The translations under genes were made by a program, and so were the position numbers. A DNA stretch of 33,538 bases from Candidatus Moraniibacteriota bacterium. GTDB taxonomy: Bacteria > Patescibacteriota > Minisyncoccia > Moranbacterales > UBA9337. The notes below the pieces were generated by a model. The model had not been told where the DNA came from. It saw only the letters and a list, made by a program, of their open reading frames with translations, and searched no databases. The DNA lies in NCBI GenBank assembly GCA_034007405.1, contig JAVEQZ010000001.1, positions 1-33,538 of the forward strand, in the 5' to 3' direction. How positions within the stretch are numbered: the stretch's first letter is position 1; the number at the start of each line of letters is the position of its first letter. Positions 30,176-33,006 of this stretch are shown here, in pieces.

Positions 30176-31198
30176 TCAACAGATCCGCGGGATTAATTTG
30201 CCCCGCGGAGATTCAATTTTTCTCAAACTACCCAACTCCGTCCGGACAAAAACTCCTCGGCCCTTATCCACTTTTCCGATTACTCCGGCTTCTCGATTAA
30301 ATTTTCTGAGAATTTTAATAACTTTATCAATATTTTTTTCCGAAACCGAAGCGATAAAACGCCCTTCGGAAGCCAGGGAAAATTTGTCCAAACCCAAAAG
30401 CTCCGTCACCGCCACCACTTCTTTCTTGTAGGGCAAACTTTTTTCTTCCAAAATTATTTTAACTTTCGACTTATCGGCTATTTCATTCAGATTGGCGGCC
30501 AATCCGCCCCGTGTCGGATCCTTGCAAGCATTCAAAAATTTTCCCACTGTTTCCAATTCTTTGTTTAAGGGCTGGCAATCGCTCCTGATTTTGGTTTGAT
30601 AATTAAACCGCTGAGCCAAAAGCGTCACCGCGTGTTCCCCCAAATCTCCCGAGGAAATAATCAAATCTCCCGCTTTGGCTCCGCTGTTGGGAATTATCTT
30701 TTGCGCCAAACCTACTCCCGCCGTAGTGATGGCTATCTTATCAATTTTTCCTTTTTCGGTCACCTTGGTATCGCCGGTTACAACCGGCACGCCCGTTTTT
30801 TTTGAGACTGCTCCGATTGATTGCATTATTTTTTTTAAATCTTCCGCCGAAAAACCTTCTTCTATTACCAAACTCAAAGATATTCCGATCGGCTTGGCCC
30901 CCATTACTGCCAAATCATTAATCGTCCCGCAAATCGCAATTTTACCGATATCGCCTCCCGGGAAAAAAATCGGATCAACAATAAAAGCATCCGTGGTAAA
31001 AACCAATTTTTTTGCAAAAAAATCTGTCCCGAGCTCAATCGAGGAATCTCCCAATTCAAAACTCGCCCCATCATCTTCGATATTTTTCCACTTCGAAGAT
31101 TTGGGAAAATTTTTTCTGATATTCGAAATAATCTCCGCCGATTTCAATCCGCCTCCGCCCATATCTAATGTTATATTGCTATATTGTTTTATTGTCAT
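30176..31198 (-). CDS. hypE: Hydrogenase maturation protein HypE
   Basis: 340 aa with a PurM-like fold. The C-terminus ends ...GKLIPRIC, the conserved HypE PRIC motif carrying the carbamoyl/cyano Cys. Confidence 0.9.
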   Translation of the reverse strand: MTIKQYSNITLDMGGGGLKSAEIISNIRKNFPKSSKWKNIEDDGASFELGDSSIELGTDFFAKKLVFTTDAFIVDPIFFPGGDIGKIAICGTINDLAVMGAKPIGISLSLVIEEGFSAEDLKKIMQSIGAVSKKTGVPVVTGDTKVTEKGKIDKIAITTAGVGLAQKIIPNSGAKAGDLIISSGDLGEHAVTLLAQRFNYQTKIRSDCQPLNKELETVGKFLNACKDPTRGGLAANLNEIADKSKVKIILEEKSLPYKKEVVAVTELLGLDKFSLASEGRFIASVSEKNIDKVIKILRKFNREAGVIGKVDKGRGVFVRTELGSLRKIESPRGKLIPRIC

Positions 31199-31332
31199 AT
31201 CGTCTTTTTATCATAAAAATGATGCAAATTTAATACTTATACACGAATATGCAAATGTAATAAATGTTATTCTTTTGCTTCTGAATTAATTATTCTTTTT
31301 CTATATCATTTTTACACCTTAAATTCATCTTA

Positions 31333-31356
31333 TTGCCATATAAGGATATATGGCAA
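31333..31356. promoter_or_regulatory. Inverted repeat ttGCCATATA-agga-TATATGGCaa, copy 1 (candidate operator or RNA hairpin) upstream of hypE
   Basis: The 22-nt core tgccatataaggatatatggca is identical to 31835-31856. It has 9-bp arms (10 bp with the flanking t/a) and a 4-bp spacer. Confidence 0.6.
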
Positions 31357-31369
31357 TCTTTATAAATAT

Positions 31370-31783
31370 CTATAATCCAAATAAATCCTTAATAAATCGA
31401 TGATGGGCATATTTGTCCAGTGAACTTGTCGAGTAACGATAGCGCCTGGAGCTCTTTTCTTTTTTATCTTCGCCCACCAAGCATTTTTTTAGCCAAGTAA
31501 CGTTTTTCCCCTCGTTATTATACAGCCATTGCTCCACTCTCTGAATAGTATGACTGCTAGCTCCAACTTTTTCTCTTATATCCGAATAACTTTTTTTATT
31601 TAAAATCAACTTGGCAATCTGGATTCTTCTAGCCATCATCAATGCTTCGCTGGCTGTAAATAGTCCCAAAAGAAAATCGATTATTTCCTGTTTGGTTTTT
31701 AAACATTCAATAACTTCAAACATATCGTTTATTATTTCTTTCTTTTCTTTACTATCTATTTCGTGAGGTTTTATCTTGGACAT
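31370..31783 (-). CDS. TrpR-family YerC/YecD-like DNA-binding protein
   Basis: 137 aa. FLLGLFTASEALMMARRIQIAKLILNKKSYSDIREKVGASSHTIQRVEQWL matches the YerC/YecD (Trp repressor-like) HTH core closely. Confidence 0.75.
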   Translation of the reverse strand: MSKIKPHEIDSKEKKEIINDMFEVIECLKTKQEIIDFLLGLFTASEALMMARRIQIAKLILNKKSYSDIREKVGASSHTIQRVEQWLYNNEGKNVTWLKKCLVGEDKKEKSSRRYRYSTSSLDKYAHHRFIKDLFGL

Positions 31784-31833
31784 ATTTTTATTTTTTATCT
31801 CCGATTATTCATACATTCATATATTATCACAAA

Positions 31834-31857
31834 ATGCCATATAAGGATATATGGCAT
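31834..31857. promoter_or_regulatory. Inverted repeat aTGCCATATA-agga-TATATGGCAt, copy 2, upstream of the YerC-like gene and downstream of hypD
   Basis: It has the same 22-nt core as copy 1, in the same orientation. On the minus strand it starts 2 nt after a TATAAT and is followed by TTTTGTGATAAT, which reads as a T-run or as an extended -10. Confidence 0.6.
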
Positions 31858-31956
31858 TTATTATATTTCCAATTTAAATAGATTAAGTAGATAAGGTTTT
31901 ATCTGTTGATTACTTTTTGTAATCATTATTATATTACTACCAATAATACGAACAAT

Positions 31957-33006
31957 CTATTTTGCATAGCGAAAAGATACATTGCAGGCCCCCTCCACTG
32001 AAACCATGCACGGTCCGACCGGATTGTCCGGATTGCAAAATTTGCCGAACATGGGGCATTTTTGGGGATTTAAAATTCCCCGAATAACCTCTCCGCACTT
32101 GCAACCGGCCGGATCTTTGGATTTGGAAAAATCAACTTTACCCAAAATATCTCGATATTTTATTTTGGCATTAAATCTTTGATATTTGTTTTTGATTTCC
32201 AATCCCGAACCGGGAATTATCCCGAATCCCCGCCACTCCCCATCACTAATTTCAAAGACTTCCTGAATTATCTTCTGAATTTTTTTATTACCCCCCGTCT
32301 TTACCACTCGCGAATATTGATTAAGCACCCTCAAATCGTCATTTTTAATTTGATTGAGCAATAAAAAAATTCCCTCCAGCACATCTTGCATTTCAAAACC
32401 GGTAATTACTTGAGGGATTTTTAATTTTTGATAAGGTATCGAACCGATTATCGCACTCACATGACCCGGATCGATAAAACCGTCAATCTTTATCTTCTCG
32501 CTTCTAAGTAACTCCTCCATAGCCGGCAAAAATATTTTATGTGTCGAATAAACCGAAAAATTATTTTTTGCCAATCTCTCGACTGTTTGAATTGCCCAAG
32601 CGGTCATCGGCGTAGTCGTTTCAAATCCCAAACCGAAAAAAACTACTTCATTGTTCTTTCCCGCCAAATCCAAAACTTCGTCAACAGAATAAACAGCAAA
32701 AACTTGAGCGCCTTTTTCTCGCGCCTGATCCAAGCTACCGAAATATCCCGGCACCCGAAGCATATCCCCATAAGTGGCTACCGGAATTCCCGCCAAAGCC
32801 AAACTCACGATCGCATCGATATCTTTCTGGGCCGTTACGCAGACCGGACACCCCGGTCCGGTTATCAGTTTGACATTTTTGGGTAAAACCTCCCTGATAC
32901 CGTAATGGCTGATTGCCTGAGTATGCGTCCCGCAAACCTCCATCAAATTCACTTCTCGCCCGATTTCTTTAGAAATTTTATTTATTTGAGTTATTATTTT
33001 TTGCAT
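31957..33006 (-). CDS. hypD: Hydrogenase maturation protein HypD
   Basis: 349 aa. CGTHT, GPGCPVCVT, GFETT and PGHVS motifs are present, plus the C-terminal Cys cluster CKCGEV...CPMFGKFCNPDNPVGPCMVSVEGAC. Confidence 0.93.
   Translation of the reverse strand: MQKIITQINKISKEIGREVNLMEVCGTHTQAISHYGIREVLPKNVKLITGPGCPVCVTAQKDIDAIVSLALAGIPVATYGDMLRVPGYFGSLDQAREKGAQVFAVYSVDEVLDLAGKNNEVVFFGLGFETTTPMTAWAIQTVERLAKNNFSVYSTHKIFLPAMEELLRSEKIKIDGFIDPGHVSAIIGSIPYQKLKIPQVITGFEMQDVLEGIFLLLNQIKNDDLRVLNQYSRVVKTGGNKKIQKIIQEVFEISDGEWRGFGIIPGSGLEIKNKYQRFNAKIKYRDILGKVDFSKSKDPAGCKCGEVIRGILNPQKCPMFGKFCNPDNPVGPCMVSVEGACNVSFRYAK

What the first reader, a model, noticed from the sequence alone, without database searches (positions are those of the whole stretch)
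31333..31857. YerC/TrpR-like regulator inserted between hypD and hypE, bracketed by two identical 22-bp inverted repeats
hypD and hypE are normally adjacent. Here a 137-aa YerC/YecD (Trp-repressor-fold) gene sits between them. The exact sequence tgccatata-agga-tatatggca occurs on both sides, at 31334-31355 and 31835-31856, in the same orientation and 501 bp apart.

Copy 2 begins 2 nt after a TATAAT on the minus strand, overlapping the predicted TSS region. It overlaps the -35 and spacer of a second TGtGATAAT element. This is the position expected for an autoregulatory operator. Copy 1 lies about 135 nt upstream of the hypE ATG.

The simplest model is a dimeric repressor binding both sites and controlling itself plus hypE. 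That would link a TrpR-fold regulator of unknown ligand to hydrogenase maturation.

There are two alternatives. The repeats could be RNA hairpins: copy 2 is followed by UUUU on the minus strand, so it could terminate hypD. Or they could be the boundaries of an inserted cassette.
Basis: partly seen in the sequence, partly recalled or inferred. Interest (0 to 1): 0.62.

Follow-up and report, generated by a model that had tools for sequence, protein, structure and literature searches.

The report
Repressor gene bracketed by twin palindromes
A small Trp-repressor-like DNA-binding gene sitting between two hydrogenase-maturation genes is flanked by two identical copies of what is most likely its own binding site, an arrangement I found to be typical of this protein family in ultra-small (CPR) bacteria rather than special to hydrogenase genes.

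Summary
The 22-mer TGCCATATAAGGATATATGGCA occurs exactly twice in the window, and exactly twice in the whole 898-kb genome even with 3 mismatches allowed. The two copies bracket a 137-aa TrpR/HisR-fold gene lying between hypD and hypE.

The bracket is not peculiar to this locus:
- All three TrpR-family genes of this genome carry their own, different palindrome on both sides.
- In 47 of 71 homologous loci from other Patescibacteria, the upstream and downstream flanks share at least 16 nt. Mismatched control pairs do so in 7 of 599 cases.

In three species whose synonymous sites are near saturation (dS about 1 or more), the only conserved intergenic blocks are the two palindromes, an extended -10 box abutting the upstream copy, and the leader just before the ATG.

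Best reading (about 0.55): an operator-repressor-operator module. The upstream site autoregulates. The downstream site lies on the path into hypE.

The hypD-yerC-hypE order holds in orthologues down to 74% identity, and the yerC-hypE junction down to 62%. Paralogues sit before unrelated genes such as tatD, and no further site exists in this genome. There is therefore no hydrogenase regulon.

The terminator reading is weak. A mobile or REP-like reading is not excluded. Binding has not been tested.

The parts
31832..31859 (.). Palindrome copy 2 (core 31835-31856), upstream of the yerC-like gene and 100 nt after the hypD stop. Probable operator O1 over the gene's promoter.
   Evidence: Exact 22-mer. 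12-bp arms. The 19-nt core is conserved in G007 and G008.
31823..31831 (-). Extended -10-like box TGTGATAAT, 3 nt downstream of copy 2 on the minus strand. Candidate promoter of the yerC-like gene.
   Evidence: Read from the sequence. Conserved as TGTGATAAA in G007 and TATGGTAAT in G008, while the rest of the spacer diverges.
31784..31795 (-). Conserved A-rich leader AAAAATAAAAAT immediately before the ATG.
   Evidence: Identical in three species.
31370..31783 (-). 137-aa TrpR/HisR-fold (YerC/YecD family) gene. It has a roughly 40-aa C-terminal extension ending in the invariant motif LDKYAHHRF.
   Evidence: dN/dS is about 0.04 against G008.
31332..31357 (.). Palindrome copy 1 (core 31334-31355), 14 nt after the yerC stop and 135 nt before the hypE ATG. 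Probable second operator O2.
   Evidence: Exact 22-mer. Conserved in G007, G008, L089 and L092.
31327..31356 (-). Promoter-like TTGCCA-18-TAAGAT, overlapping copy 1 and facing hypE. This is a weak consensus match only.
   Evidence: 9 of 12 matches; the region has no more such matches than shuffled sequence. A -10-like TAAAAT or TAAAAA sits at the same place in L092 and G007.
30176..31198 (-). hypE, the downstream co-directional gene.
   Evidence: TIGR02124, 339 bits.
31957..33006 (-). hypD, the upstream co-directional gene.
   Evidence: TIGR00075, 422 bits.

Best explanation
The locus is a self-contained operator-repressor-operator module. The 137-aa protein is a HisR/TrpR-fold helix-turn-helix protein and presumably a dimer. 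I infer that it binds the palindrome tgCCATAT-N6-ATATGGca.

Copy 2 covers the -35 and spacer region of the gene's own extended -10 promoter, so binding there would autorepress the gene. This step is inferred from position and conservation.

Copy 1 lies 14 nt behind the stop codon, on the only transcriptional path from yerC (and from hypCD) into hypE. Bound protein there could act in three ways:
- as a roadblock to transcription;
- by occluding a weak promoter embedded in the site;
- by bridging to copy 2 as a loop.

Any of these would make hypE expression depend on the repressor's unknown ligand. This step is also inferred.

The module is one paralogue of a family spread across Patescibacteria. 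In that family each member is bracketed by its own palindrome. This paralogue became fixed upstream of hypE in a small group of Moranbacteria. It is not a hydrogenase-wide regulator.
For: **Family and fold**
- Pfam and TIGRFAM scores are above cut-off.
- The closest solved sequences are the HisR-type proteins 3FRW (5.6e-15), 3G1C and 3KOR.
- The AlphaFold model (pLDDT 80) matches only TrpR/HisR structures, with TM-score 0.7-0.8 normalised by target length.
- HisR and TrpR bind 20-bp palindromes, and HisR's site is TTTA-N6-TAAA (PMC9413887). The site here has the same N6 geometry.

**Constraint on the sites**
- In G000, G007 and G008 the spacers are otherwise unalignable.
- All six copies still keep CATATATCCTTATATGGCA, and the -10 box next to copy 2 is kept as well.
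- yerC dS is 1.0-2.6 between these species.

**Generality**
- 47 of 71 GTDB loci share at least 16 nt between upstream and downstream flanks, against 7 of 599 mismatched pairs.
- Most of the roughly 45 loci from relatives show the same.
- All three TrpR-family genes of this genome have different, private palindromes.

**Specificity in this genome**
- There are only two copies genome-wide.

**Link to hypE**
- hypC-hypD-yerC-hypE order is found in G007, G008 and L089. yerC followed by hypE is found in L090 and L092, down to 62% identity.

**Co-directional downstream genes**
- Downstream genes are mostly co-directional. Some start only about 2-30 nt after the palindrome, so they must be transcribed through it.
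Against: - No binding, transcript-end or expression data exist. RNA-labelled runs were too thin to interpret.
- A crude partial Mantel test found that palindrome similarity tracks overall protein relatedness (p = 0.005). It did not track the recognition helix specifically (r = 0.02, p = 0.41).
- Many palindromes are perfect over 28-44 bp, longer than one TrpR-type dimer should need. Each copy extends its symmetry independently.
- Orthologue L089 carries the same 8-bp central duplication in both copies. L074 has an N14 centre.
- Relatives have solo copies. Some lie between convergent genes. One 40-contig draft assembly (G009) has three solos and no PF01371 gene.
- The distance from copy 1 to hypE is not conserved (about 105-360 nt).
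- The promoter-like match at copy 1 is no better than chance for this AT-rich region.
Confidence: 0.55

Rival explanations
1. Selfish or mobile cassette, REP/RAYT-like in layout. The palindromes would be the ends or recombination substrates of a small unit (palindrome-gene-palindrome). The unit would move or be lost by recombination between its direct repeats. The HTH protein would maintain or mobilise its own palindromes. Solo palindromes elsewhere would be footprints or landing sites. Its position before hypE would be an accident of insertion into a permissive spacer.
For: - The family is patchy and multi-copy: 33 of 61 relatives have it, with up to 7 copies per genome.
- The module is absent from six of nine congeners at both of its loci.
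- The hypD-hypE spacer holds other small, typically mobile ORFs in relatives: GxxExxY type, four-helix-bundle type and an IS200-like gene.
- The flanking copies are mostly direct repeats (33 direct, 6 inverted).
- Both copies show concerted changes: an 8-bp duplication in L089 and a central deletion in G020.
- Solos occur in several genomes, including one without the gene.
Against: - The protein has no catalytic domain (HTH only).
- This genome has only 2 copies, and relatives have at most about 10. REP families usually number hundreds.
- Paralogues keep synteny over family-level distances, for example metG-yerC-tatD and yerC-hypE.
- dS of about 1 or more between orthologues argues against recent transfer.
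- Empty metG-tatD sites carry no solo palindrome.
- No excision or empty-site contigs were seen in four metagenomes that hold the strain.
- The direct orientation can be explained by descent from one duplication followed by purifying selection.
Confidence: 0.2
2. RNA hairpins. Each palindrome would act in the transcript as a terminator or 3'-end stabiliser for the gene ahead of it: copy 2 for hypD and copy 1 for yerC. The protein would not be involved.
For: - Both copies fold as stable hairpins: -16.2 kcal/mol (z -5.2) and -14.2 kcal/mol (z -2.8).
- Copy 2 is followed by UUUUGUG on the coding strand.
- The scan calls copy 2 terminator-like on the opposite strand.
- Some solos in relatives lie between convergent genes with A-tract / T-tract flanks.
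Against: - Copy 1 has no U tract.
- The stems have only 3 G-C pairs in 9-12.
- The motif is not reused at other 3' ends (2 copies genome-wide).
- Unrelated terminators have no reason to be identical on both sides of one gene in 47 of 71 loci.
- Arm mismatches show no sense-strand G-U bias: 8 sense, 8 antisense and 26 other.
- The asymmetric loop sequence is itself conserved.
Confidence: 0.08
3. Site-specific recombination sites, dif-like or attC-like, delimiting a gene cassette handled by a host tyrosine recombinase.
For: - The architecture of 9-12-bp inverted arms around an asymmetric 4-6-bp centre, in direct orientation, resembles recombinase core sites.
- G019 shows four palindromes punctuating four consecutive small genes.
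Against: - No recombinase gene was seen among the ORFs read next to the module in the loci inspected; these were not profile-searched.
- The palindrome sequence differs for every paralogue, which one host recombinase could not serve.
- No excised or empty forms were seen.
Confidence: 0.04

Closest known systems
HisR (B. subtilis YerC and orthologues), the TrpR-family histidine repressor (PMC9413887; structures 3G1C, 3FRW, 3KOR)
   Same: - Same Pfam and TIGRFAM family and the same fold.
- The recognition helix is similar: GASSHTIQRV here against GASTATISRV in 3FRW.
- The operator type is a palindrome with a 6-bp centre, and autoregulatory sites occur upstream of the regulator gene.
   Different: - 137 aa rather than under 100 aa, because of a conserved C-terminal extension (LDKYAHHRF).
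- The site is CCATAT-N6-ATATGG, not TTTA-N6-TAAA.
- Only 2 of HisR's 6 conserved acidic helix-2 residues are kept in the 3FRW alignment.
- There is no his-gene context and no convincing HisA/HisF gene in the genome.
- A second identical site lies behind the gene.
E. coli TrpR with its trpR, trpEDCBA and aroH operators
   Same: The fold, the dimeric HTH logic, and autoregulation through a palindrome overlapping its own promoter.
   Different: - The TIGR01321 equivalog score is 24 bits against a cut-off of 67.
- There is no tryptophan-pathway context.
- The operator is duplicated downstream of the gene.
- No dispersed regulon exists in this genome.
REP/RAYT units (REPtrons, REPIN-RAYT)
   Same: - A single gene is flanked on both sides by its own family-specific palindromes.
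- Different paralogues pair with different palindromes.
- Solo palindromes occur in intergenic regions of some relatives.
   Different: - The protein is an HTH repressor fold, not an HUH Y1 transposase.
- Copy numbers are 2-10, not hundreds.
- This genome has no solo copy.
Two-operator repression with a downstream auxiliary operator (lac O1/O2, gal OE/OI) and transcription roadblocks (for example PurR in purB)
   Same: One site lies at the promoter and a second identical site lies some hundred bp downstream on the transcribed path.
   Different: Here the second site lies behind the regulator's own stop codon. The pair encloses the whole gene. Looping or roadblocking is only inferred.

Membership tests
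TrpR family / YerC-YecD (PF01371, TIGR02531) | Profile score above the curated cut-off | tested here: met
   PF01371 54.6 bits (cut-off 27). TIGR02531 50.9 bits (cut-off 42.2)..
TrpR family / YerC-YecD (PF01371, TIGR02531) | All-helical TrpR fold with a helix-turn-helix | tested here: met
   AlphaFold model with pLDDT 80. The top 43 Foldseek PDB hits are all TrpR/HisR-type, with TM-score 0.7-0.8 normalised by target length.
TrpR family / YerC-YecD (PF01371, TIGR02531) | Intertwined dimer binding a palindromic operator | not testable with these tools
   A palindrome of fitting geometry is present. Binding and oligomeric state are not tested.
HisR (histidine repressor) | Short protein (under 100 aa) with a conserved acidic helix 2 | tested here: not met
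   137 aa. In the 3FRW alignment 2 of 6 acidic positions are kept.
HisR (histidine repressor) | Operator cacTTTA-N6-TAAAgtg upstream of his biosynthesis or transport genes | tested here: not met
   The site is tgCCATAT-N6-ATATGGca between hyp genes. The best His_biosynth match in the genome is a partial 22-bit hit.
TrpR equivalog (TIGR01321) | Score above the equivalog cut-off | tested here: not met
   24.3 bits against 67.25.
REP/RAYT unit | Gene flanked on both sides by its own palindromic repeat | tested here: met
REP/RAYT unit | Flanked gene encodes an HUH Y1 transposase | tested here: not met
   Only Trp_repressor and HTH_23 matches. TrpR fold.
REP/RAYT unit | Many dispersed copies of the repeat in the genome | tested here: not met
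   2 copies in G000 at up to 3 mismatches. At most 10 in relatives.
Intrinsic terminator | G+C-rich stem followed by a U tract on the transcribed strand | tested here: inconclusive
   Copy 2 has a 9-12-bp stem with 3 G-C pairs, then UUUUGUG. Copy 1 has no U tract.
Intrinsic terminator | RNA-level constraint (G-U tolerated on the sense strand) | tested here: not met
   8 sense G-U, 8 antisense and 26 other mismatches.
Insertion sequence / MITE | Transposase, terminal inverted repeats, target-site duplication, and empty sites | tested here: not met
   No transposase domain. The repeats are direct copies of a palindrome. Empty metG-tatD sites carry no remnant. No joints in metagenome contigs.

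The most novel reading that the evidence does not exclude
The palindrome-gene-palindrome unit would be a portable 'operon gate'. It would be a non-catalytic TrpR-fold protein plus two copies of its private site that can become lodged inside an operon, here between hypCD and hypE. There it would take control of the downstream gene by roadblock or looping.

Over evolutionary time the unit would spread, be lost and leave solo palindromes through recombination at its own repeats. This would be a REPIN/RAYT-like partnership built on a repressor rather than a transposase.
Probability: 0.15. Interest if true: 0.8.

Novelty: new variant of a known kind. Interest (0 to 1): 0.5.

Why it matters
Almost nothing is known experimentally about gene regulation in Patescibacteria (CPR). 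This family offers ready-made, orthogonal regulator-site pairs, three of them in this one genome. They can be tested in vitro without cultivating the organism.

If the downstream site gates the next gene, it would show how streamlined genomes wire single genes (hypE, tatD, Maf, HAD phosphatases) to a sensor with a minimal module.

For hydrogenase biology the claim is narrower. In one small Moranbacteria clade, hypE alone may be under separate control from hypCD. I found no description of the twin-site architecture in the searchable literature.

Tried and rejected
- **Generic terminator or REP in this genome.** Rejected. There are only two copies at up to 3 mismatches. Single half-sites elsewhere (6) sit in no visible palindrome context.
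- **Hydrogenase regulon.** No further site exists anywhere. [NiFe] large-subunit motifs are present on C72 and C27 but carry no palindrome.
- **Recognition-helix against half-site covariation (partial Mantel).** No helix-specific signal. My registration of half-sites was crude, so this is a failed test, not a refutation.
- **-10 boxes after palindromes compared with their mirror side.** Uninformative in this AT-rich DNA.
- **Sense-strand G-U bias.** None found.
- **Transcript evidence.** RNA-labelled runs hold only a few 151-nt pieces. One 'joint' had a 21-nt side and is probably from another organism.
- **Excision or empty-site variants.** None in four metagenomes. Contigs drop rare variants, so absence is weak evidence.
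- **Solo palindrome at empty metG-tatD sites of congeners.** None.
- **First literature search.** The term 'YerC' by word start returned place names only.

Full report
**Observation**

The 22-mer TGCCATATAAGGATATATGGCA is present at 31334-31355 and 31835-31856, in the same orientation and 501 bp apart. None of 100 dinucleotide-preserving shuffles gave any match.

The window is contig C45 of an 898-kb, 38% G+C, 88-contig genome, labelled Candidatus Moraniibacteriota through its close relatives. A whole-genome search allowing 3 mismatches finds only these two copies.

Each copy is palindromic beyond the shared core. Copy 1 has 11-bp arms and copy 2 has 12-bp arms.

On the minus strand the gene order is hypC, hypD (31957-33006), a 137-aa gene (31370-31783), then hypE (30176-31198). 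All were identified with profile scores far above cut-off.

**The protein**

- It scores above the curated cut-offs of Pfam Trp_repressor and TIGR02531 YerC/YecD. It fails the true TrpR equivalog.
- Its nearest solved relatives are the HisR-type proteins 3FRW, 3G1C and 3KOR.
- An AlphaFold model (pLDDT 80) matches only TrpR/HisR structures.
- B. subtilis YerC is HisR, a histidine-responsive repressor that binds 20-bp palindromes of the form TTTA-N6-TAAA (PMC9413887).
- The site here, tgCCATAT-N6-ATATGGca, has the same geometry but a different sequence.
- The protein is not a HisR orthologue in the functional sense:
  - it carries a roughly 40-aa C-terminal extension ending in an invariant LDKYAHHRF motif;
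  - it keeps only 2 of HisR's 6 conserved acidic helix-2 residues in the 3FRW alignment;
  - the genome has no convincing HisA/HisF gene.

**The bracket is a family trait, not a hyp-locus curiosity**

- In 61 related genomes the roughly 135-aa family is patchy and often multi-copy.
- In most loci the same 19-34-nt sequence, usually a palindrome, lies both upstream and downstream of the gene.
- In an independent set of GTDB species, 47 of 71 loci share at least 16 nt between the 160 nt upstream and the 160 nt downstream. Mismatched locus pairs do so in 7 of 599 cases. The set spans records labelled Moran-, Yanofsky-, Taylor- and Nomurabacteria, the Parcubacteria group, Peregrinibacteria/Peribacteria and Saccharibacteria.
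- The palindromes are clade-specific, for example TTACCATAT..., CTCCCATATAT..., TCCATATAACCACATATGGA, CAATAT...ATATTG and TACAGTAT...
- All three TrpR-family genes of this genome have their own private palindrome on both sides:
  - C45, the gene studied here;
  - C80, between metG and tatD;
  - the 185-aa type on C32.

**Functional constraint at this locus**

G007 (82% protein identity) and G008 (93%) have the same hypD-yerC-hypE order. yerC dN/dS is about 0.04, with dS of 1.0-2.6, so neutral sites are close to saturated.

In the three-way alignment of the two spacers, only the following blocks are conserved:
- both palindromes (the 19-nt core CATATATCCTTATATGGCA is identical in all six copies);
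- the TTTTGTGATAAT box directly after the upstream copy;
- the A-rich leader before the ATG.

This is what an operator overlapping an extended -10 promoter should look like. The downstream copy stays 12-14 nt behind the stop codon, while its distance to hypE varies from about 105 to 360 nt. It therefore belongs to the yerC unit rather than to a fixed hypE promoter.

**The link to hypE**

- Orthologues at 74% identity (L089) show hypC-hypD-yerC-hypE. A 62% orthologue (L092) shows yerC followed 62 nt later by hypE, with the palindrome and a TAAAAT box in between.
- Below about 58% identity the homologues sit next to other genes (map, Maf, CYTH, HAD, a nucleoside deoxyribosyltransferase-like gene). 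A second paralogue keeps metG-yerC-tatD across families.
- Downstream genes are mostly co-directional. Some start within about 2-30 nt of the palindrome, so they must be transcribed through it.
- This fits a general design. The upstream site controls initiation. The downstream site lies on the path to the next gene.
- It also means the protein is not a hydrogenase regulator as such. No further site exists in this genome.
- Six of nine congeners lack the module.
- In relatives the hypD-hypE spacer is empty, or is occupied by other small ORFs: GxxExxY type, four-helix-bundle type and IS200-like.

**Tests of the rival readings**

*Terminator.*
- Both copies fold well as RNA.
- Copy 1 has no U tract, and the stems are A+T-rich.
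- The motif is not reused at other 3' ends.
- Arm mismatches across the family show no sense-strand G-U bias (8 sense, 8 antisense, 26 other).

*Mobile or REP-like element.* In favour:
- patchy distribution;
- mostly direct orientation of the two copies (33 direct, 6 inverted, 8 symmetric);
- concerted changes in both copies, namely the same 8-bp central duplication in L089 and the same central deletion in G020;
- solo palindromes in relatives, some between convergent genes;
- three solos in an assembly without any PF01371 gene.

Against:
- there is no catalytic domain;
- copy numbers are low;
- synteny is long-lived and dS is high;
- empty metG-tatD sites carry no remnant;
- four metagenomes that hold this strain show no excised forms.

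Direct orientation can also be explained by descent from one duplication followed by purifying selection on an asymmetric centre.

**What remains weak**

- Binding is inferred, not shown.
- My covariation test did not separate the recognition helix from overall relatedness.
- The promoter-like match in copy 1 is no better than chance.
- Available RNA-labelled runs are too thin to interpret.
- Three features are not predicted by a simple one-dimer operator: the long perfect symmetry of many sites, the N14 variants, and the solos in a genome without the gene.

**Earlier notes from this scan**

Earlier notes describe the same architecture in many other genomes. I used them only as leads and re-derived the pattern here. 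I found no published description.

**Verdict**

- The repressor/operator reading is the best supported (about 0.55).
- Control of hypE is plausible, and the gene order is conserved in a small clade.
- The hydrogenase framing is too narrow, because this is one instance of a CPR-wide self-bracketing TrpR-like module.

Noticed in passing
G000:C80:18361-18777 (L068 1962-2381) and G000:C32:5169-5726: The two other TrpR-family genes of this genome are each flanked by their own palindrome. C80 has TACTCCAATATTACAGTATATTGTAGTA, between metG and tatD. C32 has CTTCCACGC-N6-GCGTGGAAG around a 185-aa type.
   Followed up: partly
hypD-hypE spacers of relatives (L026, L029, L032, L038, L039): In this family the hypD-hypE spacer is a hotspot for unrelated small ORFs: GxxExxY type in G003 and G004, four-helix-bundle (23S-IVS) type in G009, an IS200-like Y1 transposase in G023, and an unknown 198-aa ORF in G010. 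In more distant families hypD and hypE abut.
   Followed up: partly
L089 2389-2500 and 2906-3010; L074; L011/L133: Both palindrome copies of a 74% orthologue carry the same 8-bp central tandem duplication (ATATCCTC). Another paralogue has an N14 palindromic centre. In G020 both copies lack the centre and share a 40-nt direct repeat. The two flanking copies therefore evolve in concert.
   Followed up: partly
G019 contigs C4, C20, C28, C38, C56 (L058-L061) and C25 (L062): CCATAT-N6-ATATGG palindromes lie about 100 nt from several contig ends, next to the 3' end of a multi-copy gene. On C25 four copies punctuate four consecutive small genes, giving a cassette-array look.
   Followed up: partly
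G009 (L055-L057): Three near-identical 26-28-bp palindromes of the TTACCATATTACGTAATATGGTAA type occur in a 40-contig draft assembly (marker-gene completeness estimate 100%). That assembly has no PF01371 gene.
   Followed up: partly
G000:C45 beyond window end (about 33539-33780): A run of N lies just after the window, with the same hypC sequence on both sides. This is probably a scaffolding artefact that duplicates part of hypC.
   Followed up: no
window 31194-31363: Three RNA-labelled wastewater runs (X26, X27, X28) each contain a 151-nt piece covering the yerC-hypE spacer including copy 1. Depth is too low, and the libraries too uncertain, to interpret.
   Followed up: partly
window 31128-32107 versus flanks: In metagenome contig X3 the 21 differences from the window all fall in hypE (31092-31127) and hypD (32108-32257). 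None falls in the roughly 980 nt spanning the yerC module. This suggests strain-level recombination in hypD, or homogenisation of the module.
   Followed up: no
L094 2470-2554: A tandem ATACATA-type repeat (ataatacata repeated about 7 times) lies directly upstream of the gene that follows a yerC module.
   Followed up: no
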